A stretch of DNA of 64,000 nt from an uncultured Clostridia bacterium (GCA_946412355.1 CAMKGX010000004.1:476-64475), one strand, 5' to 3'; counted from the stretch's first letter, positions 47,809 through 62,084 are shown. A program made the numbers and translations. The notes: generated from the sequence alone by a model not told the origin.

Positions 47809-49374
47809 TTAAGACCCGATGGCGGGCTTGTTTTCGCGAATACCGCGGGTATTTTTCGACACGTTGCTTGCCTGAAGCATGGTAACTCCTGTATCACAGG
47901 AGACAGAAATGGTACTGCCCGCCTCTTCGGCGTGGACTGTCAGAGTGAGCATCAGCTCCTCACTGCCGTCATTGACAAGCTTGAACTTGTCATAGGCAAT
48001 ATAATTGACATCCTGGTTTGCACACAGTGAGATGGGCGTCAAGGCAGGATGGTGAGATCCGATGGGGAAAAGGACATCCCGCTCCATCTTGGCGGCCAAA
48101 AGCGCCTGGTTGGAAGGCAGCCTGTAATCCGGCTTTGCGGTGATACTCTTGGAGGACTCGTGCCCCATGAGATAGTCAATTTCGTCCTGTGTCAGACCAC
48201 ACTTGTTGCGCCAACGAGAGGCACAGTCCCGGCGGAGCACATAGGCGGTAACCTCATTGTTGTCCACAGCGTCCTTCTGCGGGTCCAAATAGGCCACGTT
48301 GGATACATCGTCCCAAAAAGTGGGGCTCGCAATAAAAGTGCTGAGGTTAGTCCGCACCCAGGCGGAGAGGTCATCTGCTTTCATCAGCGGTTGTGGAGAC
48401 GTGGGGCGGGTCAGATGGCCAAGACAACTTCGGATGACACTTGTGGGACCGGCGGGGATGACTACGGTGCGGTAGGCGTTGTTGGTCTTGAGGGTGGGAC
48501 ACCGTGCGCTGTCTTTCTCCTGAAATAGAATCGTGACAGTGCAACCGAAGTCTGTAAAGGTAATGTCCGTCCACGGATCCACTCCTGCGGCTTCCGCTGT
48601 TCGCGCGGCCCCGGCAAACATCAGCATGGCGCACAGCGCATGCTTGGGATCGGATTCAGCGGCGGTCTGCAAGAATTCGGCAAATTGCTGCCGCACGGAG
48701 TCGCTCAGTGCTTTGACCTGCTCCGGACGAATAAGCTTGAGCCGATTACGCGACCTGAGCACAATAGTGGGGAGGGTGGGATCCACTCCGCACATGGCGT
48801 CATAGATCTTCTGCGCGGCGGTCAGATTGCTATTGGCGGTGTTAATCACGGAGGACGTGCCGGTGTGGCTGTTGCCATTGTTTGTGATGTCCTGGATGAT
48901 GGCTTGCCGCAGTTCATAACGATCCTGGTCAGTGAAGGGCTGGTTCAGATAATCCTGGAGTCTCGGGAGAATGTTAATTCCGAAATAGGTGAGCCACCGT
49001 TTGGCGACGGTGCTGCGCCACTGAGTCCAATCTTTTGGTTCGGTTTTTTCCAGTTTTCTGAAGCTGAGCGTCATGGCGTTATTTTCGTCCAGGCCGTTGC
49101 TGCTATGGGCGGACTGCTGCCGCGCCTGCACCGGGTGACGCAACGCGGACAGGATAGAGTCCACAAGACTCCGCTTTGCCGAATCGATTGCAGTCGGGTT
49201 ATCGGGGACGCCCCTGCGCGGCAGCGTTTTGGACCCGTCAACCCGCGTTTGCGTTCCGTGCTGTACAGCGTAGCCCTGTAGATTGACCGTGGACCTTCCG
49301 GCTTTGCGGGATATGGTGATGTGAGCATCTACATCCGGCCTTTTGGTCGGTACATTAATTGCATTGATTGCCGT
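47809..49374 (-). CDS. Tyrosine recombinase/integrase, apparently active; start codon uncertain
   Basis: MFAGAARTAEA (Arg), LKT (Lys), YVLRR (Arg), LMGH (His), KPDY (Tyr). AAAGGAGG RBS at 49383-49390 points to a start near 49374; the 794-aa ORF-track call overlaps the divergent gene. Confidence 0.8.
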   Translation of the reverse strand, partial: TAINAINVPTKRPDVDAHITISRKAGRSTVNLQGYAVQHGTQTRVDGSKTLPRRGVPDNPTAIDSAKRSLVDSILSALRHPVQARQQSAHSSNGLDENNAMTLSFRKLEKTEPKDWTQWRSTVAKRWLTYFGINILPRLQDYLNQPFTDQDRYELRQAIIQDITNNGNSHTGTSSVINTANSNLTAAQKIYDAMCGVDPTLPTIVLRSRNRLKLIRPEQVKALSDSVRQQFAEFLQTAAESDPKHALCAMLMFAGAARTAEAAGVDPWTDITFTDFGCTVTILFQEKDSARCPTLKTNNAYRTVVIPAGPTSVIRSCLGHLTRPTSPQPLMKADDLSAWVRTNLSTFIASPTFWDDVSNVAYLDPQKDAVDNNEVTAYVLRRDCASRWRNKCGLTQDEIDYLMGHESSKSITAKPDYRLPSNQALLAAKMERDVLFPIGSHHPALTPISLCANQDVNYIAYDKFKLVNDGSEELMLTLTVHAEEAGSTISVSCDTGVTMLQASNVSKNTRGIRENKPAIGS

Positions 49375-49531
49375 GGGATCGCCTCCTTTAGAAAAAGCTC
49401 TGGTATAGTATAGAACTATTAAAGGCGACAAAGCTAGCCAATCGTTCACTTTAGCGGGGAAGAATGTATTGTGAACCGAGGCAGATGTGGTATACTGGAT
49501 CTGGTAGTGAAAATAAGGGAGGGGAATATAC

Positions 49532-51085
49532 ATGGCAGAATCTATAGAATCTGTGTGGAAACGTGGTGTCGATTGTGAACGTACGGAGCTGCTGGGAATC
49601 GACGGGCTGAATGTACTATCGGGGGATATTGATCCGGTGTTCACAGCTGTCAAGAGCGGTGACAGGGGTTGGTACTGTGATACGTGCAGAGAAAGATTGT
49701 ATGTCAAGGAGTATTCCCGGCGCGATCTGCACGATGTCATCCCCCAATGGGTTTGCGACAACAACAAAGCGTCACCATATGATAGGCTTAAATATTTAGG
49801 ACCCAGATTACTATGCCCCAACTGTAACAAGCGGGTATCACCTAAAGAAGAGTTTGCGGCCCCAAAAGCGCGCTGCACATACAGGATGCAGCAGTATATA
49901 GGCCTGGGGGTGATGCTCTCTCCCATCAGACAAGTCAGAAAGAGCATTGACAACCAGATTAGCATAAGCGGCATCGAGAAGATTTTTTCGGGGTGGCTGA
50001 AAGAATTTGATGCAAAGGTACATGAAAGAATGAAATCGCCCGATGTTCTGGGTGTTTTCGTTATTCGCACGGAGGCAGAGCAGGAGTTAACAATTCTGCT
50101 GGATTGCTGGAGTGGGAATCTGCTGGATATTGTGGAACCGGGCGATGCTGATGCGCTGAAGGACAGGTTAAGTGCGCTGCAGGGTAAAAACAAAACAAAA
50201 GAATTGTTTATTGACCCTTATAACTGGATATATGATGCAGTAAAGGCTGTATACAAAAGGGCGTCCATCAAGATGGCCCCATTGCGTGTATCGGAAACGG
50301 TTCGAAGAGAGGCGTCAGCCGATATTGCGGCGATAGTCCGGAAGAAAGCGGACAGGAAGCTATTTCGGGATGACCCGAAACAGCTATCCCCGAGGAGGAA
50401 GAAGAAAAAGGATTGGTTACAGCAGACAATCCAGGGCCTGGAGGATCTGGAAAAGGGTATCTGCGTGATGGCAGAAGCCGCCAAAAGAGAATCGATAAGT
50501 CCACGTTTGTCTACTTTCTCAAAAAACCTACAGCGCTATTGGCGTAATAACGAGATAGCTATTTCAAACTGTGAAGTTGATAGTTTACCTGACAGCGCGA
50601 TAGATGCCATTCGGACGGAACAGGAAGCTCTTTCCTACACCAACGGATGTGGGCTGCCGGCCTTGCGGGCCCGCACGCTGTACACAGACGCGGCAGAGAA
50701 TTGCTTTAACGACTTCTTCGGCATAGGGGGGGAAAACGGATTCAACCTGAGGAAAATGGATGACGGGATAATGTATAACGCACTGATGAGTTGGGAGCTG
50801 AACAAATCATCACGCTATGTGCCCATTGACATGATCCCCTATTTGATAGCCGCCATTGAGCCGGCGGTTGATGTGCTGAATAGTGAAGGCTCCATGAGAG
50901 AGATGTGCTTCCACCCGGAAAACCGTGACCGGCTGCTGAAAGAAGCATATCAATTCGGATTTCCACAATTGGTTGTAGAGAGAAACCTTGCTGCCGCAAA
51001 CAGGCTGATTCGACAGCAACGCAGAAACAGACGAGGGGACGCAATCGAAAGAAGCGCATGGACAGAAGAGGACTGGCAGAAGTGA
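49532..51085 (+). CDS. ISL3-family transposase-derived protein with degenerate DDE motif
   Basis: CxxC..CxxC zinc finger (CDTC, CPNC), KARCTYRM, LGVFVI, LDIVE, FIDPY, LRARTLY; GGAGG RBS. Confidence 0.72.
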   Translation: MAESIESVWKRGVDCERTELLGIDGLNVLSGDIDPVFTAVKSGDRGWYCDTCRERLYVKEYSRRDLHDVIPQWVCDNNKASPYDRLKYLGPRLLCPNCNKRVSPKEEFAAPKARCTYRMQQYIGLGVMLSPIRQVRKSIDNQISISGIEKIFSGWLKEFDAKVHERMKSPDVLGVFVIRTEAEQELTILLDCWSGNLLDIVEPGDADALKDRLSALQGKNKTKELFIDPYNWIYDAVKAVYKRASIKMAPLRVSETVRREASADIAAIVRKKADRKLFRDDPKQLSPRRKKKKDWLQQTIQGLEDLEKGICVMAEAAKRESISPRLSTFSKNLQRYWRNNEIAISNCEVDSLPDSAIDAIRTEQEALSYTNGCGLPALRARTLYTDAAENCFNDFFGIGGENGFNLRKMDDGIMYNALMSWELNKSSRYVPIDMIPYLIAAIEPAVDVLNSEGSMREMCFHPENRDRLLKEAYQFGFPQLVVERNLAAANRLIRQQRRNRRGDAIERSAWTEEDWQK

Positions 51086-51105
51086 TATAGCCGGGGCATA
51101 CAGAT

Positions 51106-51154
51106 AAAAACAGCGGGCCGGGTGAGCAGAGATGCTCTCCCGGCCCGCTGTTTT
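51106..51154 (+). terminator. Intrinsic terminator
   Basis: AAAACAGCGGGCCGGG..CCCGGCCCGCTGTTTT. Confidence 0.8.
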
Positions 51155-51253
51155 GCGGAGACCGACCTACTGATACTATATTTAATATAGCGTATGTCAC
51201 GTAAAACTGGGCTGTGCAGCAGCAAAATGATTCAAAAAAGCCAAAAAAAGTGC

Positions 51254-51282
51254 TTGCAATAGGGGACACATAGTGTTATAAT
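51254..51282 (+). promoter_or_regulatory. Strong sigma-A promoter upstream of the serine recombinase unit
   Basis: TTGCAA-17 bp-TATAAT with TGn. Confidence 0.7.
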
Positions 51283-51599
51283 AGGGTAAAAGAAAAAAGT
51301 GCGGCAGCAAGAGGGGGCGGCAACCCCCACTTGCCTGCATAGGTGAAGTGAGCACCTACACAGCAGAAATGAATCTGCACCGCACCTGTAGTATATTCTT
51401 TTTTCGCTTCGTTTGCAAGGGGGGAAAGGGTATGCGAAGGGACGGGGCAGTATGTGCACCGTGTAGGACTGACCTGCACGGTTTTTCTTATTTCTTCGGA
51501 AAGGAGGTTCGTCCGGCCTGCGGGGGCAGGCTGGGCAGGTATGTTTGCCGGCATACCTTCATATGTTGGAACAACAAAACGCATATGGAGGGTATCATA

Positions 51600-51704
51600 A
51601 TGAAACGCAAAGACACGACGACCTATCGCGTTACGCGTCACTTTGAGGGGACCCGCTCCGCCAGGGAGGTAGTGGCGGCGCTGGTCAGGACCCACAGCCG
51701 ATAA
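51600..51704 (+). CDS. Small (34 aa) protein coupled to the serine recombinase
   Basis: GGAGG RBS; MKRKDTTTYRVTRHFEGTRSAREVVAALVRTHSR*; stop 4 nt before the recombinase ATG. Confidence 0.6.
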   Translation: MKRKDTTTYRVTRHFEGTRSAREVVAALVRTHSR

Positions 51705-51708
51705 GCCT

Positions 51709-53319
51709 ATGGGTACGAAAGATACATACCGCGTCGGGCGCTACGCCCGACTTTCCCGGGAGGACGGGGACAAGCTGGAGAGCGACAGCATCGTCAACCA
51801 GCAGCGGGTGATAGAGGACTACTGCGCGGTCCATGCCGGGCTGGTCATCGTAGAGGACTATGCGGACGACGGCTTTACCGGCACCAACTTTAACCGCCCT
51901 GCGTTCCGGCGGATGCTGGACGACATTGAGAAGAACAAAATCGACTGCATCGTCGTGAAGGACCTGTCCCGTTTCGGCCGTGACTATATCGACATGGGCT
52001 ACTACCTGGAGCGGTACCTGCCCAGCCGGAATATACGGTTCATTGCCATCAATGACAATGTGGACAGCCTGAATGGGCCCTATGACATGCTGCTGCCGCT
52101 GAAGAACGTCTTCAACACACAGTACGCCAAGGACATCTCCGGGAAGGTGCGGAGTGCCTTCCGCGTCAAGCAGCAGCGGGGCGAATTCGTGGGCGCCTTT
52201 GCCTCCTACGGCTACCAGAAGGACCCGGAGAACCACAACAGGCTGATGGTTGACCCGGTGGCAGCCCGGGTGGTTTTGCGGGTGTTTCAGATGGCAGCCC
52301 AGGGCATCGGGCAGGTGCGCATTGCCAAGACACTGAACGAGGAGAAGATTCCCTGTCCCAGTGAGTATAAGAAGATGATGGGCATGAAGTACTGCAACAA
52401 CCACCGCCTGGAGACCACCCGGTACTGGACCTACGCCACCATTCACCGCATGCTGACCAATGAAATGTACGCGGGTGCCATGGTGCAGAACCGCAGTGTG
52501 CGGCCCACGATGCACGGCAAGGCAAAGGCGCTGGATAAGAAGGACTGGGTGGTGGTGGACAATACCCACGAGGCCATTATCTCCCGGGAGCTGTGGGACA
52601 CGGTGCAGGCGCAGGTGGCCAAGAATGGCCGGGAGATCGACTTCCAGGGCAACCTGGGCCTGTTCGCAGGCTTTCTGTTCTGCGGTGATTGCGGACGGGC
52701 CATGGTCAAGACTATTTGGGGCAAGAAGACCACCTACTCCTGCGGCTCCTACCGCCGGTATGGGGCGACGGTGTGCAGCAGTCATTCCACGCCTATGGAA
52801 ACGCTGGAGGCCATCATTCTGGCGGACCTGAATCGCATTATCGCAGAGGTGAAGGATCTGCGCCAGGTGGCGGAGTCGTGCCGGGAGGAGAGCCCCCTGC
52901 AGGCGCGGCGCTCGTCCGAGCAGCAGCGTCTTACCGCCGCCTTGACACGGGTGCAGCACCTGAAGAAGGGCGCCTATGAAGATTACAAGGAGAACCTGCT
53001 GTCCCGGGACGAGTATCTCCGCTATAAGGAGGACTACGACAAGCAGGAGGCGTCATTGCAGGGGCAACTGGCTCAGCTGGCGCAGCAGGAGGACCCTCAA
53101 GAGCTTTTGCAGGAGCCCTGGGTGGACCAGCTCCTGCGGTTGGGCTGCCTCACAACGCTGGACCGGGCGACCCTGGCGCAGACGGTGAAGGAAATCCGGG
53201 TGTTTGAGGACAAGCACATCGAGATTACCTACCTCTTCTCCGACGCGCTGCGGGTGCTGTTGGAAAAACCCGGCGAGGAGGAGGGACAGGCCGCCCGCGA
53301 GGAGAACTGCACACCTTAA
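51709..53319 (+). CDS. Large serine recombinase (resolvase + recombinase + zinc-ribbon + coiled coil; TnpX/TndX-like)
   Basis: YARLSREDG (catalytic Ser), SIVNQ, DDGFTGTNFNRPAF, VKDLSRFGRDY, FCGDCG..CGSY..CSSH. Confidence 0.93.
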   Translation: MGTKDTYRVGRYARLSREDGDKLESDSIVNQQRVIEDYCAVHAGLVIVEDYADDGFTGTNFNRPAFRRMLDDIEKNKIDCIVVKDLSRFGRDYIDMGYYLERYLPSRNIRFIAINDNVDSLNGPYDMLLPLKNVFNTQYAKDISGKVRSAFRVKQQRGEFVGAFASYGYQKDPENHNRLMVDPVAARVVLRVFQMAAQGIGQVRIAKTLNEEKIPCPSEYKKMMGMKYCNNHRLETTRYWTYATIHRMLTNEMYAGAMVQNRSVRPTMHGKAKALDKKDWVVVDNTHEAIISRELWDTVQAQVAKNGREIDFQGNLGLFAGFLFCGDCGRAMVKTIWGKKTTYSCGSYRRYGATVCSSHSTPMETLEAIILADLNRIIAEVKDLRQVAESCREESPLQARRSSEQQRLTAALTRVQHLKKGAYEDYKENLLSRDEYLRYKEDYDKQEASLQGQLAQLAQQEDPQELLQEPWVDQLLRLGCLTTLDRATLAQTVKEIRVFEDKHIEITYLFSDALRVLLEKPGEEEGQAAREENCTP

Positions 53320-53499: not shown

Positions 53500-53859
53500 A
53501 TGAAACGTCACGGTAAACAAGCAAACGCAAGGCTGTATCACTTCGGCAGGAGGGAGAGCAGCACCACCGCTCCGGCTGGGTGGGGGAGGGAGCGGATGAT
53601 GCTCTCGGGTGGGCTGGATATGGACTGTCGTAGCCGCGGCGCATTCACGGCTTGGGGGGTACCTGAAGCTGATAGGGTGAGCCTGTACCGGCAGGGCTGT
53701 GTGCTGACGGGAGGAGGTGCGGCGTAAAAAACGAATTTGCACAGCATTGACAATCTGTTTACTCTGGCAGAGCCGCTTGGCGTTACCGTGGGTAAAATGA
53801 TTGCGAGAAAACACTATTGCAACGGCAGAGAGGGGCTGTTCCCCTCCCGCACACAATAA
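53500..53859 (+). pseudogene. Possible decayed XRE-type HTH gene (in-frame TAA at 53725-53727)
   Basis: AAGGAGGT RBS and ATG 53500; the same frame after the stop reads HSIDNLFTLAEPLGVTVGKMI, resembling the C-terminal helices of XRE HTH domains. Confidence 0.35.
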
Positions 53860-53885
53860 TAATTTACGAGAGAAGAGGTAAGAAA

Positions 53886-54857
53886 ATGAGCATTATGGAC
53901 GATTATCAGAATAGCCAGAAGTTTTTCTTTGGCATGGCCGGTGGTTATAACGCCTTCGACGTGTGCGCCGCCTTCATCCTGGAGGAGGTGCGGCTGTATC
54001 GGAACAAGAACGGCGGGCAGAACATGGTGTGCACGCTGCGGAACTGCAAGGGCGCCATCGCCGGCATCTGCTTTGATTACTGCGGAGAGTTGGATGAGTC
54101 CAGCGCCGGCACCCCTGTGATGGTGCAGGGTAGGATGGGCTCCTACAAGGGCGCGCCCCAGATTCGGATTATCGACATCTGGCCTCTGGATGCTGACGAC
54201 GCGCAGAACGACATCCGGACGCTGCTGCCCCACGGGTTGTTGTCGGGGGAAGAGGGGTTTAAGACGTTCCGGGATGCCATGGTGGCGAAGATCCAGGACG
54301 GGGACTATCTCCTGTTGTGCAAGGCGTTGGTGGACGAAAACAAGGAGGTGTTCAGTTCCTGCCCGGCGTCCACCGGCAGCCATCACGCCTGCGTGGGCGG
54401 TCTGCTGACCCACACCTTCGAGGTGATGGAGTGGGCGTATAACTTCGCTGAATACTACAATGATACCTATGACTTTGGCATTGACAAAGAGCTGCTGACT
54501 GCCGGGGCGGTGCTCCACGACATCGGCAAGGTGCGTGAGTATGGCTTTGACAGCACCGGCGCGGCAATGCGGCCCACGGATGCCATGAAGGAGAACGCCC
54601 ATGCGCTGGAGGGCGCCATGATGATTCGGGAGATGGCCCAGGAGCTGGGCACGCCGGAGGATAAGGCAAGGAAGCTGGAAAACCTGGTGGCCAGCCACCA
54701 CACCGCCTATCCGTTCCGCGTTGGCGTGAGCCCCATCACGCCGGAGGCCAAGCTGCTGGCGGTGGTGGACAACCTGGACAGCAGCGTGAGCAGTAACTTC
54801 GGTAAGGACGTCACTTTTTTGGAGGGCAAGCCGGTGCACACCGGAGACGTAGCGTGA
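53886..54857 (+). CDS. YhaM/CBF1-like OB-fold + HD-domain 3'-5' exoribonuclease family protein
   Basis: HHACVGGLLTHT, GAVLHDIGKVREY, HALEG, ASHH, DNLD; GAGGT RBS. Confidence 0.85.
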   Translation: MSIMDDYQNSQKFFFGMAGGYNAFDVCAAFILEEVRLYRNKNGGQNMVCTLRNCKGAIAGICFDYCGELDESSAGTPVMVQGRMGSYKGAPQIRIIDIWPLDADDAQNDIRTLLPHGLLSGEEGFKTFRDAMVAKIQDGDYLLLCKALVDENKEVFSSCPASTGSHHACVGGLLTHTFEVMEWAYNFAEYYNDTYDFGIDKELLTAGAVLHDIGKVREYGFDSTGAAMRPTDAMKENAHALEGAMMIREMAQELGTPEDKARKLENLVASHHTAYPFRVGVSPITPEAKLLAVVDNLDSSVSSNFGKDVTFLEGKPVHTGDVA

Positions 54858-54936: not shown

Positions 54937-55434
54937 ATTTGAGACCCCTACAGAATTACACTGCTCTCAAACGTTCAGGCTCTTGCCCACGTTTCTGCCG
55001 AGGTTTGAGACCCCTACAGAATTACACTGCTCTCAAACGACCATTTGTTGACCACGGCACAATTTTCCGTTTGAGACCCCTACAGAATTACACTGCTCTC
55101 AAACCCCGCGACCATGCTGATTTTGAAAAGCGCCGTTTGAGACCCCTACAGAATTACACTGCTCTCAAACCACCTCACAGCTGCAGGCATACGTTTGCAA
55201 GTTTGAGACCCCTACAGAATTACACTGCTCCCAAACTCACGGGCAGTATCAGCCAGCGGGATATGGGTTTGAGACCCCTACAGAATTACACTGCTCTCAA
55301 ACCGTGATTTATTTACCCCTGCTGCGATTGCCGTTTGAGACCCCTACAGAATCACACTGCTCTCAAACGTTGACGGCCTTTGCTAATAGGCAAAGGGAGT
55401 TTGAGACCCCTACAGAATTGCACTGCTCTCAAAC
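54937..55434 (-). CRISPR. Type II-A CRISPR array: 8 repeats of 36 bp, 7 spacers of 30 bp
   Basis: Repeat (minus sense) GTTTGAGAGCAGTGTAATTCTGTAGGGGTCTCAAAC at 54937, 55003, 55069, 55135, 55201, 55267, 55333 and 55399 (66-bp period); terminal repeat at 54937 is degenerate. Confidence 0.98.
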
Positions 55435-55508
55435 CTCAAATCCTGACCTACGTCGGGAAAAGCGGGCTGTACCGCCGGGGCTTGGAGGCATACAGGGTCT
55501 CAAATCCG
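55435..55508 (-). promoter_or_regulatory. CRISPR leader ending in the ATTTGAG leader-anchoring motif
   Basis: Minus strand reads GGATTTGAG immediately before the first GTTTGAGAG repeat, as in many type II-A loci. Confidence 0.8.
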
Positions 55509-55670
55509 TCAGCAAATTTCGCAGAGGGACTCGTCTACGATGTACCTCTGCTCTCCGGGCAGCTTTGCGTGTTCGCAGCTGTCCAGCAGAACAGCATTAT
55601 AACCGTGCCGGAGCGCAGAATCAAGAAACAATTCTGCATCCCGGTCGGCAATCAGACTGCGCCAGCTCAT
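55509..55670 (-). pseudogene. cas1::csn2 in-frame deletion scar (53 codons)
   Basis: ATG overlaps the cas9 stop and reads MSWRS (type II Cas1-like start); the rest, ..ELFLDSALRHGYNAVLLDS..RYIVDESLCEIC*, resembles a Csn2 C-terminus. Confidence 0.8.
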
Positions 55671-58600
55671 ACCAGCTCCAAGAGGTTCCCGGATTGCTTC
55701 TCCCACAGGCCGGAGGCGGAGACGTCGATCACCCGCACATCGGAGTAGTTCTTTTTCCAATTAGACGCTGTGGTACTGAAGTTGACTGTTGCCGCAGCTT
55801 TTCCGGCCCCTCCAATGGCTGTCAAATCACATCCTCCGGCAATGCGCCCAAAGACCTGATGGATGTTCAGCAATGCCTTTGCTTGCTCCGGAACTGTCAA
55901 GGAGCGGAAGGCTTCCTGCCCGTCGCGGAGGATTTCTGTGGGCGGATTGACGCGCTTTCGGTAGATAGAAGACTCCAGCTTTGTAAGATACAGCTCGTAC
56001 AATGCCAGGTTTTTCTCGGCAGACACCTTGTCGTAAGTCTCGTCAAACATATAGGACGGGTTTTTGCTTACTTTTTCGGCCAGCATCTCCAACTTCTTGA
56101 GATAGAATTGCCAGAACGGCGCATCGGAGAATTGCACAATAGGTTGGACAATCAGGGATTTCCCCTTACTGGAGCTGCCGGAAATACACACCCGGAAGCC
56201 ATCCAGCGACAACACGGTGTTGATCTTCCAGGGACGCATCCCCAGAGGGAAGGACACCTCGTCCACCGGCTTGCCCAGAATCCGTCCTACGCGATCCTTC
56301 GCATACTCCCGGGCAAAAGCTTCATCTTCAAGGAATCTCTGCCCGTGGAGAAGCTCCACCGGCATGATAAAAAGCTCCGCCTTTTTCCCTGCCCTGTAAC
56401 GCACAGGGATAAAGAACATGACGCTGGCGCTATTATATCCACCGTATTTCTCCGGGGGCAAATCCTTCTTGCGAGGCACAAGGCCCGCAGAGGGGGAGTA
56501 GATCGTCTGGTCAAACAATTTTCCGGTCTTAAAGAAAGCGTATTTGCTGAAGTGTGCCGTATTCTTCACGGCAGTGGCCTTGACCTTGGCAAGCATCCCC
56601 TCGCCGTCCCAGACCGTCCTGCCGCCGGCGATCACCGGGTTGGTAAAGAGGGTCTTCGTCTTGATGCTGTACTTGCTGTGAACGTCGAAGTTCGGGGTGA
56701 ACTTTGCGTGATACACATTGCCGGTGACAATGTTCAAGTAGGCGTCAACGGCGTGGTGCAGGTCGTTGAAGGCGCGGGATTTCAGCAGCTCAAATTCCTG
56801 GCGGAATTCAGAGGTGAGCCGTGCCTTACAGTAGACGATTTCCGCATCCGGATAGCGTTCTTTCAGCAGCGTGGCCACCGCCTTGGCGGACTGGGAGGTT
56901 TCCGTGAGCTGCCGGTTGATAAAGCCGCGCCGCTCCTCATCCGTGAATGGAGTTTCGCGGGTCAGACGCCGGTATTTTTCCTCGCTGATCAATTCAGCGT
57001 CCTTCAGGTATTTCCAGAAGCCTGCCCTCACCTGGCGGATCTCACTCTTTATAGGATAGTCATCGCTCTTGGCTCCGTTCTCCGTGGAGAGCACCAGCAC
57101 CTTATTGTTGATGATGCTGTCGTCTTTTACGTAGGCCTGCGGATAAATGTGGTCAATGTCGTACTTCTTGGTCCACAGCTTCTCCAGACTGATGGGCGTA
57201 TCGCTGTACATGGACTTGCCCAACTGGCGATAATAGAGAAACAGCTTATCGCTTTGCAGACGGCTGTCAGCGCTGTCACCCATCGCTTCCAACTCCTGCC
57301 GAAGCCGCGGGACATCCTCGTGCCGGCAGTGGTCGTAGAGTTCCATCAGCTGCTGGTAGCGGGACTTGGTGCGTTTGCCCTTCTGATCCTCTCGCGCCCC
57401 ACGAGTCATCTCCACAAAAATCTTTTTCGGGGTGCCGAATGCCTTCGTGACGTCCTTGACGATATCCAGCGTCCTGTAAACAGAGCGCTTCACAGTGCTA
57501 GACAGATACATAGCGTCCATGCGTTCGGAAAGACTCTGGGGGTTGTGGGCATAGTATTCGCGCTGCGCAGCCTCGATTTCGGCGGCAAACGTGAATCGGT
57601 CAGAAAGGAGCTCCATCAGGTTGCACTGGGTACGCCACAATGCGTCAATGACGGTGAAGGCTTCGCCGGTATCCTTCGATGCGCCCATAAGTTCCGCCAG
57701 GAAAGCCCGGGAAAGGCGGCCAAAATCCTTCCATCGCTGTAAGCAAAGGTAACGGCGATTCTCCTCGCTCAAATCGGGATACTCCCGCTCCAGCCACTTT
57801 GCCAGACGCGTCTTGTCCTCGGCATAAGATGCCCGCTCAACAATGCGTTCTGCGTCGTGCTCGGTCAGCGCACCGGCCTCCAGCAGCCGCTTAAATGCCA
57901 TCTGCGGCGCCAGATTGGATTTGATTTCCTCGTCAATGCCACTGACGCTGTCCTCCTCGCCCCTGGCGATGACTCCCTCTGAAAGCAGGTAATCCAGCAG
58001 CTTCTTCCGGGTGACTTTCTTTTTGCAGAGGAACAGCTCGCTGTAAATCCGCTGCTTCAGGTCAACTGAAATCCGAACACCGTTGATGCGGAGGTTGTTG
58101 ATTTCATTGAGCACGGTGAACTTGTGGTACAGCAGGGAGTCCTTGGGGAGCACATCTTCGCCCGGCAGATAGGCGCACTTTCCTGTCAGGTTCCGGATAA
58201 AGGCGTCCTCGCTGGCATCCAGATCCACCATCTGTTCAAAATTCCAAGGGTAGATTTTCCCCGGCTTGCGTACGACCCACGCATGCGCTGAGGCCGTGTT
58301 CAACGGCCCCACATAGTAGGGGATGCGGAACAGGAAAATGGATTCAATCTTGTCGGCTACCGTCAACCCCTGGCTATCAGCCTGAGCCAGGAAGGGGAGG
58401 TAGCGCTGTGCGTTGGCCAGGATTTTTTTAAGCTCGAACCAGTATAGCTGGTGGGGGATAACCCGGTTATCCCCATCACGTTGCTTGGGCATGAAAGTGC
58501 GCAGCCCGAGGCGCTCCTTCATGTCCGCAAATTCAGCCTGGTCCTCAGCATCGGGTGTGATATCCTTGATAGAGGCAAGAACGTATTTGGAGAATGCCTC

Positions 58601-59731
58601 TTTGTCTTTCCTCTTCAAATCGGATGTGTTCTTGCTATCCGTGTGATAGGAGTACGCAACGTAGTTGTCCTGCCCAACGGCGCGGAACATGGCATCATAT
58701 CGCTCCGGACAGTATTTGCGGATTACCTTCTTCAAGAAGGCAAGATCCGCCCGGTGTTGCTCATAGGTGTGCACCTTTGCTGCGGAAATCGTGTCAAACG
58801 CTCCGATTGCATCCACCAGCACAGACCAGTCGTATACGCTGCGCAAGGCGGTAATCAGCTCGAAGTCATCACCGAGCTTCGCTGCCAGCTCACCCAACTT
58901 ATCATCGTCCCATGCCAGTGAGACAGAGCCCAGCTCGCCGTAACCTTCCCGTCCGGGGAATAGTTCTTTCACTTGACGGGTTCCGCCGGCGAGAAGCTTG
59001 ATAATGGCTGCCTGGCTGAACGGAAACCCCTCCGTGCCATCCTTCGGAGCCTTGGCACCGCCCAGAAGAGCAGCCGTAAGCTCTTTTTCTTTCGCTGTAA
59101 CGCCTATATGCTTGCGCAGAGCGGCGGACACCTTTTCCTCATCTGCCCCATCCCAGGGATAGAGATAGTCCCGGTCATCAAAGAATTTGCGGAACGAAGT
59201 ATAGGTACCGGAAAAGCTCTTGAGTTCAGCAAGACTGTTTTTATCAATGTTGCTGAGAAAATGTCCGCGGTGTGCCGCGAGCCAGGCACAGGCAAGATAG
59301 ACCAGCCGCACATCGTGGGGGCGGGCATCGTTCATCAAATCACAAATCAGGTGGTGGATGGTAGGATATTGGGTGTAGTACTCCACATCCGTATAGCCTG
59401 CATCATTAAACAGAGAGAACTGCTGACCCGACTCATCACGGAACAGCGCACTTTCGCGCAGCCGCTTGAAAAATCCCGGATCGACCTTGGCGATCTCCTC
59501 CGCAAAAAGCTCCTGCGTCAGCAAAACCCGCTGCTGCCGCCGATCGAGGCGGCGTCTTCCGGTGCGAAAGCCACGCCGAGCGGCATTGAGTTCTGCCGCA
59601 TCGAAAACCTGTACACCCCAGGCTGGCTCCCCGTGGAATTTTAAGAGAGAATACTGCTCGTCCGTCACAGCGTAACCCACAGAGTCAGTACCGATATCCA
59701 GACCGAGATAAAAGTTTTTTTGCCCGCTCAT
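55667..59731 (-). CDS. cas9: Type II-A CRISPR effector Cas9 (1354 aa)
   Basis: RuvC-I LGLDIGTDSVG, Arg-rich bridge helix, RIPYYVGPL, RuvC-II IFVEMTR, HNH YDIDHIYPQ..NNKVL..N..K, RuvC-III HHAVDAYL; all catalytic residues present; GGAGG RBS before ATG 59731. Confidence 0.98.
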   Translation of the reverse strand: MSGQKNFYLGLDIGTDSVGYAVTDEQYSLLKFHGEPAWGVQVFDAAELNAARRGFRTGRRRLDRRQQRVLLTQELFAEEIAKVDPGFFKRLRESALFRDESGQQFSLFNDAGYTDVEYYTQYPTIHHLICDLMNDARPHDVRLVYLACAWLAAHRGHFLSNIDKNSLAELKSFSGTYTSFRKFFDDRDYLYPWDGADEEKVSAALRKHIGVTAKEKELTAALLGGAKAPKDGTEGFPFSQAAIIKLLAGGTRQVKELFPGREGYGELGSVSLAWDDDKLGELAAKLGDDFELITALRSVYDWSVLVDAIGAFDTISAAKVHTYEQHRADLAFLKKVIRKYCPERYDAMFRAVGQDNYVAYSYHTDSKNTSDLKRKDKEAFSKYVLASIKDITPDAEDQAEFADMKERLGLRTFMPKQRDGDNRVIPHQLYWFELKKILANAQRYLPFLAQADSQGLTVADKIESIFLFRIPYYVGPLNTASAHAWVVRKPGKIYPWNFEQMVDLDASEDAFIRNLTGKCAYLPGEDVLPKDSLLYHKFTVLNEINNLRINGVRISVDLKQRIYSELFLCKKKVTRKKLLDYLLSEGVIARGEEDSVSGIDEEIKSNLAPQMAFKRLLEAGALTEHDAERIVERASYAEDKTRLAKWLEREYPDLSEENRRYLCLQRWKDFGRLSRAFLAELMGASKDTGEAFTVIDALWRTQCNLMELLSDRFTFAAEIEAAQREYYAHNPQSLSERMDAMYLSSTVKRSVYRTLDIVKDVTKAFGTPKKIFVEMTRGAREDQKGKRTKSRYQQLMELYDHCRHEDVPRLRQELEAMGDSADSRLQSDKLFLYYRQLGKSMYSDTPISLEKLWTKKYDIDHIYPQAYVKDDSIINNKVLVLSTENGAKSDDYPIKSEIRQVRAGFWKYLKDAELISEEKYRRLTRETPFTDEERRGFINRQLTETSQSAKAVATLLKERYPDAEIVYCKARLTSEFRQEFELLKSRAFNDLHHAVDAYLNIVTGNVYHAKFTPNFDVHSKYSIKTKTLFTNPVIAGGRTVWDGEGMLAKVKATAVKNTAHFSKYAFFKTGKLFDQTIYSPSAGLVPRKKDLPPEKYGGYNSASVMFFIPVRYRAGKKAELFIMPVELLHGQRFLEDEAFAREYAKDRVGRILGKPVDEVSFPLGMRPWKINTVLSLDGFRVCISGSSSKGKSLIVQPIVQFSDAPFWQFYLKKLEMLAEKVSKNPSYMFDETYDKVSAEKNLALYELYLTKLESSIYRKRVNPPTEILRDGQEAFRSLTVPEQAKALLNIHQVFGRIAGGCDLTAIGGAGKAAATVNFSTTASNWKKNYSDVRVIDVSASGLWEKQSGNLLELV

Positions 59732-59732
59732 C

Positions 59733-59761
59733 TTGACAACCTCCCTAAACCGTCGTATTAT
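59733..59761 (+). promoter_or_regulatory. tracrRNA promoter
   Basis: TTGACA-17 bp-TATTAT directly upstream of the anti-repeat. Confidence 0.75.
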
Positions 59762-59768
59762 GACCATG

Positions 59769-59889
59769 CAGTTTGGTAGACCCCTACAGAATTGCGCTGT
59801 GAGTTCAAATAAAAGTTAACTCAAACCGTTGGGCTTGCCCAACCGCACAGTGTGTGCACGAAGGACTTCTTCAGTGAAGTCCTTTTTTT
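59769..59889 (+). ncRNA. tracrRNA
   Basis: Anti-repeat GTTTGGTAGACCCCTACAGAATTGCGCTGTGAGTTCAAAT, nexus-like AAATAAAAGTTAACTCAAACCG, two hairpins, then terminator AAGGACTTC-TTCAGT-GAAGTCCTTTTTTT. Confidence 0.9.
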
Positions 59890-60104
59890 ATTTCTCAAAC
59901 AGATGCGGGGTTTTCGCATCCCTGTGGTATTTCTCTTATTTTAGCATATCAATTCGATAATATCTTCTTTTCGTTTTATATCACTTCTTTCGATACTATT
60001 ATAACCATCACATTCCAACGACACAAGAGACAAAGACCAAAAGCTTAGATACAAATGAGATAAACAATCACGTAAAAAGTATTATTTTGAAAAGCCATCT
60101 ACAA

Positions 60105-60158: not shown

Positions 60159-62084
60159 TTATTGCTTCGTTATTGCTGACAGAGAGTAATCCCCGCTAAA
60201 AAGATCATCCAGCAGGTCGGGACTGATAATTGCGTTCTGCACGCCCTCCTTGGACACGCTGTAGGAAGCGGCGATCGTAGCAAGTTTAATGGATGTGTCT
60301 ATGTCGTTCCCTTTTGAGAGTTGTGCCGCAAGGCAGCTGATGAAAATGTCGCTTGCGCCTGTTGCATCTACAGACGGGAAATCCACAGCAGGATAAGCGC
60401 GCATCTCATCCTTTCTTGCATACAGGCAACCTTTATCAGCCAACGTGATAATCACGTTCTCAACACCTTGATTAAGGAAAGCCTTTGCCTGTCCCTCCGG
60501 GGAGAGATCCGGAGCAATGATATCAGCTTCCTCTTGATTAGGGATCAGCAGGAACAGACCGTCTAGCAGTTCCGCGGAAAGCTCCTGCGCGGGAGAGGGC
60601 TTCAGGATCACCTTCACGTTGAGTTCTTTGCAGAGCCGAATGATTGCTTTTACTGTCTCGAGCGGGATCTCCATCTGTACCAGGCAATACTGAGCTTCCG
60701 CAAAGATAGAGCGATTATTTTCTATATATTCAGGCGTCACAGAGGCGTTAGCGCCGGGATTGACAACGATCGTGTTTTGACCATCGCTCTGAACATTGAT
60801 GAACGCCGTGCCGGAGAGTTGATCCTGCGAAAAGCTGACGCCCTGCATGTTGACCTGCTCGCGTGTCAGGCGCTCGAAAAGCTGCTTCCCGTACAAGTCG
60901 TTGCCGAGACGTCCTACCATAAATGCATCCGCTCCAAAGCGGCTGACACCGATGGCCTGGTTGGCTCCTTTGCCACCGGGCCATGAACTTTGCCCGGAAG
61001 CAAGAACGGTTTCCCCGCTGTGCGGTAGCCTCGTCACATTCAGTGTGACGTCCATGTTGATACTGCCCACAATGACAATCTTATGCTTCGGCTTCGCGTG
61101 GCGCTTAACACTCTCACGCCGGATCAGCTGCACAGGAAGGTTGGTAGCAAACGCAGGGGCCTGGTTGCCGTTGATCTGAGAAATGAGTGTTTCAACGGCA
61201 AGGCGCGCCAGCTCGTTCACATCGGTTTTCACAGAGGTGACTGTCGGAGAAAGTTGCTCCATGAGGGGGCTGTCCTCCAGACAGATAACCGAAATATCAT
61301 CCGGGATCTTATATTGTTTCTGAGAAAGAATGCGATAGGTTTCACCGGCCGATGCGCTGTCCTGGCATACAACAGCATCAATCCCCGCGTCAATTAAGTT
61401 GCCAAGCTGATACCCAAATTCATCACCGGTCAAGACCAAAAGCTGATCGTCAAATGGAGCTCTGTAAGAAGAGAGCCCGGTTTTATACCCGGAAATAACT
61501 CTATCTCGTGTATCAGAGGAGGTGCTGCTTTGCAGGACAAGTGCGATTCTACGATGATTATTCTTCAATAGATACGCTGTGCCTGTTTCTGAGGCAGCAG
61601 CAAAATCACGGCTTAACTGCGGAAAAGGAAGATTGGCATACGCAGAATCCAGCAGAACTACGCTGCCGATATTACAATCGTCGTTACACAGAAATGAAAC
61701 GCTTTCGGGATCGCAGGGGAAAACCAGCATTCCAGCAATATACGCCTCGCTCAGTTCGGAGAAGATCGTCTTTTCGTTTTCTGACCGGCCAGAGGAGGAT
61801 TGTACCGTTAAGGCAAAGCCTTGGCTCCGTGCAAGGCTTTGAACTCTGTCAGCAAAATCAGAAAGAAAGGTGTCCTTTAACGAGGGCATAACAAGAGCGA
61901 TCTGATTGTTTTGAGAGAGCAGCCTCCCGCGGACACCGGCATAGGGGATATAGTTACTTTGCTCTATGACCTGCAGCACACGCTGCCGCGTTTCTTCGCT
62001 GATGCGGGCGTCCTTCTGGTTAATAACCAGAGAGACCGTTGACGGGGAAACGCCTGCTGCTTTCGCTATATCTTTAATCGTCAC
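60159..62084 (-). CDS. LacI-family regulator fused to a C-terminal PfkB/ribokinase-like domain
   Basis: MTIKDIAKAAGVSPSTVS HTH, periplasmic-binding-type core, then VGSINMD, PGGKGANQA, LIPNQEEA, DATGASD. Confidence 0.9.
   Translation of the reverse strand: MTIKDIAKAAGVSPSTVSLVINQKDARISEETRQRVLQVIEQSNYIPYAGVRGRLLSQNNQIALVMPSLKDTFLSDFADRVQSLARSQGFALTVQSSSGRSENEKTIFSELSEAYIAGMLVFPCDPESVSFLCNDDCNIGSVVLLDSAYANLPFPQLSRDFAAASETGTAYLLKNNHRRIALVLQSSTSSDTRDRVISGYKTGLSSYRAPFDDQLLVLTGDEFGYQLGNLIDAGIDAVVCQDSASAGETYRILSQKQYKIPDDISVICLEDSPLMEQLSPTVTSVKTDVNELARLAVETLISQINGNQAPAFATNLPVQLIRRESVKRHAKPKHKIVIVGSINMDVTLNVTRLPHSGETVLASGQSSWPGGKGANQAIGVSRFGADAFMVGRLGNDLYGKQLFERLTREQVNMQGVSFSQDQLSGTAFINVQSDGQNTIVVNPGANASVTPEYIENNRSIFAEAQYCLVQMEIPLETVKAIIRLCKELNVKVILKPSPAQELSAELLDGLFLLIPNQEEADIIAPDLSPEGQAKAFLNQGVENVIITLADKGCLYARKDEMRAYPAVDFPSVDATGASDIFISCLAAQLSKGNDIDTSIKLATIAASYSVSKEGVQNAIISPDLLDDLFSGDYSLSAITKQ

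What the first reader, a model, noticed from the sequence alone, without database searches (positions are those of the whole stretch)
55435..55670. Cas9 locus with the adaptation block cleanly deleted: in-frame cas1::csn2 scar
Seen: only 232 bp separate the cas9 stop from the array. An ATG overlapping the cas9 stop (GTATGA) starts MSWRS and continues in frame into LIADRDAELFLDSALRHGYNAVLLDSCEHAKLPGEQRYIVDESLCEIC*, then the leader. Established: type II-A order is cas9-cas1-cas2-csn2-leader-array; these Cas1 proteins often begin MSWR and Csn2 ends with a xIDxDLCEI-like motif and has an LRS motif about 50 aa from its end. Inference: recombination between short WRS/LRS-coding microhomologies removed cas1, cas2 and most of csn2. 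Cas9, tracrRNA and array remain intact, so the locus can interfere but cannot acquire spacers by itself; it may be kept by the island as a fixed weapon or regulator.
Basis: partly seen in the sequence, partly recalled or inferred. Interest (0 to 1): 0.7.

Follow-up and report, generated by a model that had tools for sequence, protein, structure and literature searches.

The report
Cas9 locus that lost its spacer-acquisition genes
This is an ordinary Cas9 (type II-A) CRISPR immune locus of a gut Clostridia bacterium in which one short-homology deletion removed the three genes that capture new spacers, leaving a 53-codon cas1'-'csn2 remnant. Relatives have lost the same genes independently at least three more times.

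Summary
The cas9 stop (55667-55669) is followed by 232 bp and then an 8-repeat array. A 53-codon ORF (55509-55670, minus strand) starts at an ATG that overlaps the stop.

The closest intact loci (Cas9 76-77% identical) have Cas1 starting MSWRTVIV... and Csn2 ending ...NLRSLIADRDAELFLDS...CEI(G/C). The ORF is therefore cas1 nt 1-13 joined to the last ~154 nt of csn2 across a 5-nt microhomology, GCGCA.

- Two other assemblies carry the same junction, so it is not a misassembly.
- The genome has no cas1 or cas2 anywhere.
- cas9 stays under purifying selection (dN/dS 0.16). The tracrRNA, the leader and its ATTTGAG end are intact.
- The remnant drifts (4 non-synonymous to 1 synonymous change), and one strain has lost its ATG, so the peptide is probably junk.

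I infer that the csn2 tail is kept because it carries the array promoter. A TTGATT-17-TATAAT element is conserved in nine of ten related loci.

Three more independent in-frame excisions occur in relatives. One has a different junction but the same 53-codon register.

One point is unexplained. Near-identical scar-bearing strains share no spacers.

This is a decay variant of a known system. Cas9-only loci are already described.

The parts
59733..59761 (+). Promoter-like element of the tracrRNA (TTGACA-17-TATTAT, 11 of 12)
   Evidence: The same element stands at the same place in seven related loci.
59769..59893 (+). tracrRNA gene, divergent from cas9 (ends approximate). It has an anti-repeat, three 3' hairpins and an intrinsic terminator at 59860-59885 followed by a T run.
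   Evidence: Duplex with the repeat is -49.5 kcal/mol, against -21.5 +/- 2.6 for 200 shuffles. Terminator. Sequence and hairpins are conserved in 7 loci. Rfam gave no match.
55667..59731 (-). cas9, intact, 1354 aa from the ATG at 59731 (GGGAGG ribosome-binding site upstream). An upstream in-frame ATG at 59767 gives 1366 aa.
   Evidence: TIGR01865 E 1e-259. Pfam Cas9_REC, Cas9_PI, HNH_4, Cas9-BH and Cas9_RuvC. No stop codons. dN/dS 0.16 against the 98%-identical L052.
55509..55670 (-). 53-codon in-frame cas1'-'csn2 deletion remnant. Its ATG overlaps the cas9 stop.
   Evidence: Nt 1-13 match cas1 of L050 (13 of 13). Nt 13-39 match csn2 of L049 at 24 of 27, against cas1 at 13 of 27. Nt 40-162 match csn2 at 93-98 of 123.
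55658..55662 (-). Junction microhomology GCGCA, shared by cas1 (TGGCGCAC) and csn2 (CTGCGCAGT) of the intact relatives
55596..55624 (-). Inferred pre-crRNA promoter inside the csn2 remnant: TTGATT-17-TATAAT, 161 nt upstream of the first repeat
   Evidence: The element is conserved in WIN, L047, L052, G033, L048, L049, L050, L051, L055, L056 and L017 (perfect TTGACA-17-TATAAT in L017). It is absent in L018 (no TTGA). Synonymous third positions in the key bases are conserved in 9-10 of 10 loci, against a mean of 6.3 of 10 elsewhere. No transcript data.
55435..55508 (-). CRISPR leader, 74 nt. Its 3' end is ATTTGAG (55435-55441). Its 5' end carries an anti-repeat-like ATTTGAGACCC (55495-55505), predicted to pair with the 3' part of repeat 1.
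   Evidence: Identical at 74 of 74 positions in L047, while the flanks differ by 2-6%. Fold. The ATTTGAG motif is described in PMC5382924 and the II-A leader-repeat hairpin in PMC12080349.
54937..55434 (-). CRISPR array: 8 repeats (GTTTGAGAGCAGTGTAATTCTGTAGGGGTCTCAAAC) and 7 spacers of 30 nt. Repeats 1, 2 and 4 each carry a point mutation. The terminal repeat ends in T.
   Evidence: No spacer matches the own genome, the phage collection or, for the four spacers tried, IMG/VR.

Best explanation
What it is: a type II-A CRISPR-Cas9 locus (tracrRNA, cas9, leader, array) whose adaptation module cas1-cas2-csn2 (about 1.9 kb) was excised in one step.

How the deletion happened (shown): illegitimate recombination on a 5-nt microhomology (GCGCA) joined codon 4 of cas1 to codon -50 of csn2. 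The product is an in-frame 53-codon remnant: cas1 codons 1-4 followed by the last 49-50 codons of csn2.

What remains (shown):
- An interference-only module survives and is maintained by selection. cas9 has dN/dS of about 0.16 between strains that all carry the scar.
- The tracrRNA and leader are conserved.
- No integrase genes exist in the genome, so the locus cannot add spacers by itself.

The peptide (inferred, about 0.8): the remnant has no function of its own. It drifts, and one strain has lost its start codon.

Why the csn2 tail is kept (inferred, about 0.6): it carries the promoter of the array, TTGATT-17-TATAAT, written in the Leu-Asp-Ser ... His-Gly-Tyr-Asn codons. Only deletions ending upstream of that promoter leave a working crRNA supply.

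Recurrence (shown): a same-genus species (G033) lost the module independently. Its junction differs (cas1 codon 12 joined to csn2 codon -41) but the 53-codon register is the same. L019 and G343 lost it at longer microhomologies.
For: Anatomy.

Intact relatives and junction:
- L049, L050 and L051 have cas9-cas1-cas2-csn2 with Pfam Cas_Cas1, CRISPR_Cas2 and Cas_Csn2. L048 is a short contig carrying an intact csn2 and array.
- The Csn2 C-terminus of L049 is identical to the scar from R4 to S18.

Independent assemblies: L047 (AUXO015831748.1) and L052 (Logan SRR21912366) carry the same scar.

Loss of adaptation genes: no Cas1 or Cas2 by HMM and none by tblastn with close relatives.

Selection:
- cas9 dN/dS is 0.16 (WIN vs L052) and 0.18 (G033 vs L053).
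- The scar shows 1 synonymous and 4 non-synonymous changes (WIN vs L047).
- L052 has ATA instead of ATG at the scar start.
- The leader is identical at 74 of 74 positions.

tracrRNA.

Promoter.

Independence of the events:
- The Cas9 tree places intact L050 as sister to WIN+L052 (support 99/99), with G033 outside.
- Nt 13-39 are csn2-like in WIN (24 of 27) but cas1-like in G033 (22 of 27).

Other events: L019, G343/L058 against its intact sister L059, and the partly decayed G391/L035.
Against: - No read-level or RNA evidence could be obtained.
- The promoter is a consensus match plus conservation. The amino-acid motif HGYN also constrains those bases. One relative (L018) has TATCAT and no TTGA, and the more distant L014 has a separate promoter-like element in a longer leader.
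- The genome is a 92-contig assembly, 96.5% complete. A cas1-cas2 on an unbinned plasmid cannot be excluded.
- The arrays of scar-bearing strains with 98-99% identical loci share no spacer. A strictly frozen array does not predict that.
- No protospacer was found, so targeting activity and PAM are unknown.
Confidence: 0.9

Rival explanations
1. The remnant encodes a functional 53-aa micropeptide, for example a Csn2 C-terminal tail that still binds Cas9 or another partner. That would be why the fusions are in frame and the tail is kept.
For: All four independent excisions seen are in-frame fusions ending at the natural csn2 stop. WIN and G033 reach the same 53-codon length from different junctions. 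The last 14 residues (GEQRYIVDESLCEI) are identical in WIN and G033 despite 7 synonymous differences.
Against: - L052 (Cas9 98% identical) has lost the ATG (ATA).
- Within the scar-bearing lineage, substitutions are 4 non-synonymous to 1 synonymous, against 3 to 7 in the adjacent cas9 3' end, with omega about 0.7-1.2.
- The low dN/dS between lineages (0.11-0.13) equals that between intact csn2 genes (0.15). It therefore reflects the time before the deletions.
- L019 keeps only 21 Csn2 residues and G343 only 5.
- No family or homologue exists for the peptide as such.
- In-frame matches between two coding sequences are favoured by codon periodicity, so four of four is weak evidence (my own reasoning).
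Confidence: 0.07
2. Assembly artefact: cas1-cas2-csn2 are present in the organism but were collapsed out of the contig.
For: The genome is a metagenome-type assembly of 92 contigs. Reads could not be inspected.
Against: The same junction appears to the base in two other assemblies from other samples (L047, L052). The G033-type junction is on three contigs. No cas1, cas2 or csn2 fragment lies on any other contig of the genome. No long repeat exists at the junction that could cause a collapse; the shared stretch is 5 nt.
Confidence: 0.01
3. One ancient deletion is shared by the window's species and G033 and was inherited or transferred as a unit.
For: Both remnants are 53 codons long, in the same register, in species of one genus. 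The two loci lie in unrelated genomic contexts, so the module has moved.
Against: Nt 13-39 derive from csn2 in WIN and from cas1 in G033. Intact L050 and L049 nest between them in the Cas9 tree. Regaining exactly cas1-cas2-csn2 is implausible.
Confidence: 0.03
4. The locus is not frozen. Spacers are still added or replaced after the deletion. This could happen through Cas1-Cas2-Csn2 supplied in trans by a transient element, or through import of array segments from related intact loci by homologous recombination at the repeats and leader.
For: - WIN and L047 (cas9 3' end 97.9% identical, leader 100%) share none of 7 and 5 spacers.
- G033 and L053 (533 of 540 identical) share none of 6 and 10 spacers.
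- A derived repeat variant (GTATTTTCG) occupies repeats 1, 2 and 4 in G033 but none in L053.
- The leader end ATTTGAG needed for integration is intact.
- Exchange of spacers by transformation was proposed for cas9-only Campylobacter coli (PMC4607530).
Against: - One block deletion per lineage from a long ancestral array also gives disjoint spacer sets. L017 has at least 29 repeats.
- Repeat 1 of the window has a private mutation that has not been copied into any other repeat.
- Several repeats carry point mutations, as expected for an ageing array.
- No cas1 or cas2 in G000 or G033.
- No viral contig carries this repeat or this Csn2.
- No spacer is shared with any intact locus sampled.
Confidence: 0.2

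Closest known systems
Canonical type II-A CRISPR-Cas ('Group 1' loci with an ATTTGAG leader end, e.g. Streptococcus thermophilus CRISPR1; PMC5382924)
   Same: - Long Cas9 with REC, HNH, RuvC and PI domains.
- tracrRNA upstream of and divergent from cas9.
- 36-nt repeats beginning GTTTGAGAG, with 30-nt spacers.
- Leader ending in ATTTGAG.
- A leader segment complementary to the repeat (PMC12080349).
- Intact relatives have cas9-cas1-cas2-csn2 with the cas1 ATG overlapping the cas9 stop.
   Different: cas1, cas2 and all but the last 49-50 codons of csn2 are deleted. The subtype signature gene csn2 survives only as a remnant.
Cas9-only type II-C loci of Campylobacter coli clade 3 (PMC4607530)
   Same: cas9 plus repeats without cas1 or cas2. 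No other cas genes in the genome. Presumed able to interfere but not to adapt. Spacer exchange by recombination was proposed.
   Different: That case is subtype II-C, which has no csn2. No mapped deletion scar or microhomology junction was found in the passages I read. It occurs in a different phylum.
Decaying CRISPR-Cas9 of Mycoplasma gallisepticum house-finch isolates (PMC11893278)
   Same: Natural loss of parts of a type II-A locus within a lineage.
   Different: There the cas genes, including cas9, and the tracrRNA are lost or cas9 is truncated, so interference is lost. Here only the adaptation module is lost and cas9 stays under purifying selection.

Membership tests
Type II CRISPR-Cas (Cas9 effector) | Cas9 with RuvC-like and HNH nuclease domains, REC lobe and PAM-interacting domain | tested here: met
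   TIGR01865 E 1e-259 over model positions 2-1070 of 1070. Pfam Cas9_REC 1.6e-121, Cas9_PI 7e-39, HNH_4 1e-17, Cas9-BH and Cas9_RuvC. The motifs DIGTDSVG, DIDHIYPQ and HHAVDAY can be read in the translation.
Type II CRISPR-Cas (Cas9 effector) | tracrRNA with an anti-repeat complementary to the CRISPR repeat | tested here: met
   Anti-repeat at about 59771-59806 (+). Duplex -49.5 kcal/mol against -21.5 +/- 2.6 for shuffles. Promoter and terminator. Conserved in 7 loci. Expression was not tested.
Type II-A subtype | Presence of csn2 (signature gene) after cas1-cas2 | tested here: not met
   Only the last 49-50 codons of csn2 remain. By descent the locus is II-A, because its nearest relatives L049, L050 and L051 have Cas_Csn2. 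By gene content it is a degenerate II-A.
Type II-A subtype | Adaptation module cas1-cas2 in the locus | tested here: not met
   Absent from the locus and from the whole assembly.
Type II-A subtype | Leader end ATTTGAG abutting a 36-nt repeat (Group 1 of PMC5382924) | tested here: met
   The sequence reads ...GGATTTGAG|GTTTGAGAGCAGTG.
Csn2 (TIGR01866 / PF09711) | Full-length protein of about 220 aa matching the family model above its cut-off | tested here: not met
   The 53-aa peptide scores 13.7 bits against a cut-off of 35, and only on model positions 182-222. There is no Pfam hit. It is a fragment, not a member.
Functional interference-only CRISPR-Cas9 module | crRNA production and Cas9-dependent cleavage of matching targets | not testable with these tools
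   Support is indirect only: cas9 dN/dS 0.16, a conserved leader, tracrRNA and promoter-like element.

The most novel reading that the evidence does not exclude
Loss of the adaptation module may be a recurrent, favoured state in gut Oscillospirales-type II-A loci rather than random decay. Excisions repeatedly run from within a few codons of the cas9 stop to just upstream of a csn2-embedded array promoter. Twice this happened in the same register. The resulting cas9-only loci may still renew their spacers, through integrases supplied in trans by transient elements or by importing array segments from intact relatives. That would explain why scar-bearing strains with 98-99% identical loci share no spacer.
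Probability: 0.15. Interest if true: 0.7.

Novelty: new variant of a known kind. Interest (0 to 1): 0.42.

Why it matters
- It is a clean natural example, mapped to the base, of how a CRISPR-Cas9 locus sheds its adaptation genes while keeping a selected interference module.
- Such excisions recur by short homology in one Cas9 clade of gut bacteria: four or five events among about 45 loci inspected.
- It suggests that in this clade the array promoter sits inside the 3' end of csn2. That would limit which deletions are viable. It also matters for anyone cloning these minimal loci, because the 74-nt 'leader' alone may not drive crRNA.
- The complete lack of shared spacers between near-identical adaptation-less strains is a testable hint that such loci are less frozen than assumed.
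- None of this changes the known picture of type II systems. Cas9-only loci are already described.

Tried and rejected
- Pfam gives nothing for the 53-aa peptide. The 5.8-billion-protein search found only the window's own peptide, so gene callers rarely call these remnants.
- Rfam has no tracrRNA match. The tracrRNA was found by anti-repeat pairing instead.
- Spacer targets: none in the own genome. A concatenate of the 7 spacers found nothing in 50,697 phage records. Four spacers found nothing in IMG/VR. No PAM can therefore be derived.
- A trans source of adaptation genes: neither the repeat nor the closest Csn2 occurs in viral contigs.
- A single shared deletion for WIN and G033 was considered and rejected.
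- A strong in-register homology between the cas1 5' end and csn2 was tested as the cause of the identical register. The register has 18 of 42 matches, rank 15-22 of about 1790 offsets. That is elevated but not unique, so the coincidence is only partly explained.
- Synteny between the G033 and window loci: none outside tracrRNA-cas9-scar-array.

Full report
**1. What is in the window**

On the minus strand, cas9 ends with TGA at 55667-55669. Its protein matches TIGR01865 at E 1e-259 and carries the Cas9_REC, Cas9_PI, HNH_4, bridge-helix and RuvC Pfam domains. Relatives begin MS.QK.YYLGLD, so the true start is most likely the ATG at 59731 (1354 aa), preceded by GGGAGG, rather than the upstream ATG at 59767.

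An ATG overlapping the stop (ATGA, 55668-55670) opens a 53-codon frame, MSWRSLIADRDAELFLDSALRHGYNAVLLDSCEHAKLPGEQRYIVDESLCEIC*, which ends at 55509. A 74-nt leader follows (55435-55508). Then comes an array of 8 repeats (GTTTGAGAGCAGTGTAATTCTGTAGGGGTCTCAAAC) and 7 spacers of 30 nt (54937-55434).

**2. tracrRNA**

Upstream of cas9, on the opposite strand, lies a strong promoter-like site (TTGACA-17-TATTAT, 59733-59761). After it come an anti-repeat, three hairpins and an intrinsic terminator at 59860-59885.
- The anti-repeat pairs with the repeat at -49.5 kcal/mol, against -21.5 +/- 2.6 for shuffles.
- The whole RNA is conserved in seven related loci, most of them intact.
- Rfam has no match.

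**3. The 53-codon frame is a cas1'-'csn2 deletion remnant**

NCBIfam places the peptide on the last 41 positions of the Csn2 model, weakly (E 0.037). Csn2 of a related intact locus hits this place by tblastn at E 4e-13.

The decisive evidence is the closest intact loci, found through Cas9 homologues and a metagenome scan. L049 (Cas9 77% identical), L050 (76%) and L051 (73%) have cas9-cas1-cas2-csn2 with the expected Pfam families. L048 is a short metagenome contig (2,261 nt) that carries an intact csn2 and array. L049 gives Cas1 = MSWRTVIVANQAKLDYK... and Csn2 = ...KLFVLYNLRSLIADRDAELFLDSVLRHGYNVFMIESGEHTRLSGEQRYIVDESLCEIG*.

| Scar segment (nt) | Identity to cas1 | Identity to csn2 |
|---|---|---|
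| 1-13 | 13/13 (L050) | not computed for this segment |
| 13-39 | 13/27 (L049) | 24/27 (L049) |
| 40-162 | not listed | 93-98/123 |

The two parental stretches overlap in GCGCA (window 55658-55662).

**4. Not an artefact, and the genes are gone**

- Two independent assemblies carry the same junction. L047 (AUXO015831748.1) has a cas9 3' end 97.9% identical. L052 (Logan SRR21912366) has a Cas9 98% identical.
- The own assembly is 96.5% complete.
- It has no Cas1 or Cas2 by HMM.
- tblastn with the relatives' proteins finds no cas1, cas2 or further csn2 piece in it.
- It has no second array of this repeat.

**5. What is under selection**

| Comparison | Result |
|---|---|
| cas9, WIN vs L052 (both scar-bearing) | dN/dS 0.16 (53.5 syn, 30.5 non-syn) |
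| cas9, G033 vs L053 (both scar-bearing) | dN/dS 0.18 |
| Leader, WIN vs L047 | 74/74 identical; trailer flank 93.6% |
| Scar, WIN vs L047 | 1 syn, 4 non-syn |
| Adjacent cas9 3' end, WIN vs L047 | 7 syn, 3 non-syn |
| csn2-derived part, scars vs intact genes | dN/dS 0.12-0.13 |
| csn2 3' end, intact vs intact | dN/dS 0.15 |

In L052 the ATG of the scar has become ATA, with the cas9 stop now TAA. The peptide is therefore most likely not needed.

The csn2-derived part shows the same low dN/dS against intact genes as intact genes show against each other. Most of that divergence therefore predates the deletion. The deletion is younger than the split from L050 (dS about 1) and older than the WIN/L047/L052 split (dS 0.03-0.06).

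**6. Why the csn2 tail is kept (inference)**

The scan for sigma-70-type sites finds TTGATT-17-TATAAT at 55624-55596, inside the remnant and 161 nt upstream of repeat 1.
- The element is present at the same place in WIN, L047, L052, G033, L048, L049 (TTGACT/TACAAT), L050, L051, L055, L056 (TTGAAA) and L017 (perfect TTGACA-17-TATAAT).
- L018 has no TTGA there and reads TATCAT at the -10 position.
- The synonymous third positions that form the first T of TTGA and the TAT-AAT are conserved in 9-10 of 10 loci, against a mean of 6.3 of 10 for other third positions.
- The 74-nt leader is G+C-rich and has no comparable site.
- The leader begins with an anti-repeat-like ATTTGAGACCC predicted to pair with repeat 1. 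This fits the leader-repeat hairpin described for II-A systems (PMC12080349), and it must be transcribed to act.

I therefore propose that the array promoter lies in the csn2 3' end, and that only deletions ending upstream of it keep crRNA expression. Both 53-codon scars end 6-36 nt upstream of the -35 box. This is not shown. It needs a mapped 5' end.

**7. Recurrence**

In a sample of 401 genomes of the same order, 30 have this Cas9 clade. Nearly all evaluable loci have cas1 (MSWR...) starting at the cas9 stop. The exceptions and other finds are these.

(a) G033, a same-genus species with Cas9 75% identical, has a 53-codon remnant, MSWRTVVVANQAGLFLDSVIRH... Its nt 13-39 are cas1-like (22/27) and not csn2-like (12/27). 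Its junction is at a GCG microhomology at nt 34-36. The Cas9 tree places intact L050 as sister to WIN+L052 (support 99/99), with L049 and G033 outside. The two deletions are therefore independent, yet they are in the same register. The loci also sit in unrelated genomic contexts.

(b) L019, a horse-faeces Clostridia MAG, has a 64-codon in-frame fusion at a shared LMIEN-coding stretch.

(c) G343, a complete genome, has cas9 fused in frame to the last five codons of csn2 at an ATTGATTTAT microhomology. Its array starts 27 nt after the stop, and its sister genome is intact.

(d) G391 has a partial, out-of-frame decay.

The in-register similarity between the cas1 5' end and csn2 is raised (18/42, top 1% of offsets). 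It does not fully explain the identical register.

**8. Unexplained: spacer content**

WIN (7 spacers) and L047 (5) share none, although both carry the scar and an identical leader. G033 (6) and L053 (10; 533/540 identical across the cas9 3' end, scar and leader) also share none. No spacer is shared among any of 16 arrays.

Block deletions from a long ancestral array could do this. Several features also fit an ageing array:
- Repeat 1 of the window has a private mutation that has not been copied into other repeats.
- Repeats 2 and 4 also carry point mutations.

Other features leave room for post-deletion turnover:
- A derived repeat variant is spread over repeats 1, 2 and 4 of G033 but is absent from L053.
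- Repeat 2 carries the same variant in WIN and L047, flanked by different spacers.

Such turnover could come from adaptation in trans or from array exchange, as suggested for cas9-only C. coli (PMC4607530). Neither G000 nor G033 has any cas1 or cas2. No viral contig carries this repeat or this Csn2.

**9. Comparison with what is known, and verdict**

By descent this is a Group-1 (ATTTGAG leader end) type II-A system (PMC5382924). By content it fails the II-A signature, since csn2, cas1 and cas2 are absent.

Cas9-only loci are already described (PMC4607530). Earlier notes of this scan record similar cases in other genomes; I did not test those notes.

It is a decay variant of a known system. 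The added value is in four points:
- the base-level junction;
- the demonstration of independent recurrent excisions;
- the candidate csn2-embedded promoter;
- the spacer-turnover puzzle.

Noticed in passing
window 55495-55505 (-) with 55399-55410 (-): The first bases of the leader (ATTTGAGACCC) are complementary to the 3' part of repeat 1 and pair with it in the predicted fold. A similar anti-repeat-like piece directly follows the csn2 stop in G033, L048-L051, L017 and L018. This fits the II-A leader-repeat hairpin reported to suppress the extraneous crRNA (PMC12080349).
   Followed up: partly
window 55333-55368 (-) and L047 779-814: Repeat 2 carries the same A-to-G variant (GTGTGATT) in the window and in L047, yet the spacers on both sides of it differ between the two strains. 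A simple loss-only history does not easily explain this.
   Followed up: no
L058 (G343:C1, about 1097390) against L059 (G066:C9): In a complete genome, cas9 is fused in frame to the last five codons of csn2 (...SVDL|SDKLF*) at a 10-nt microhomology. The array starts 27 nt after the stop. The sister genome has the full cas1-cas2-csn2. G343 has another Cas1 about 830 kb away.
   Followed up: partly
L019 10117-10400 (JAKSQK010000009.1): This is a third independent in-frame cas1'-'csn2 remnant, 64 codons long. It joins Cas1 residues 1-43 to the last 21 residues of Csn2 at a shared LMIEN-coding stretch. That MAG has no Cas1.
   Followed up: partly
L035 / L060 (G391:C97): An intermediate state of decay. 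cas1 is cut to 23 codons out of frame, only the 3' 68 codons of cas2 remain, csn2 has a premature stop near its end, and the array is still present.
   Followed up: no
L053, array spacers 5 and 7: Two spacers of one scar-bearing array differ at 3 of 30 positions (CCGGCACATTATTTCTCACAGATAGCATAG and CCGGCACATTATTTTTCACACTTAGCATAG). This is as expected from two separate captures of variants of one target.
   Followed up: no
window 47809-53319: A large serine recombinase (51709-53319, +; Resolvase, Recombinase and Zn_ribbon_recom domains) and two ORFs with weak integrase or transposase PHROG matches lie 1.6-7 kb beyond the trailer end of the array. A mobile element may abut the CRISPR locus. An HD-domain gene (53817-54857, +) lies between them and the array.
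   Followed up: partly
window 60159-62084 (-): One 641-aa ORF combines a LacI-type HTH, a periplasmic-binding-like sugar sensor domain and a complete PfkB carbohydrate kinase. This is a regulator-kinase fusion. A second PfkB kinase and an ABC-transporter ATPase lie next to it.
   Followed up: no
window 59957-59984 (-) against 59769-59893 (+): The only promoter-like site upstream of cas9 on its own strand lies beyond the tracrRNA gene. The cas9 5' UTR would then be antisense to the whole tracrRNA. This arrangement could couple their expression.
   Followed up: no
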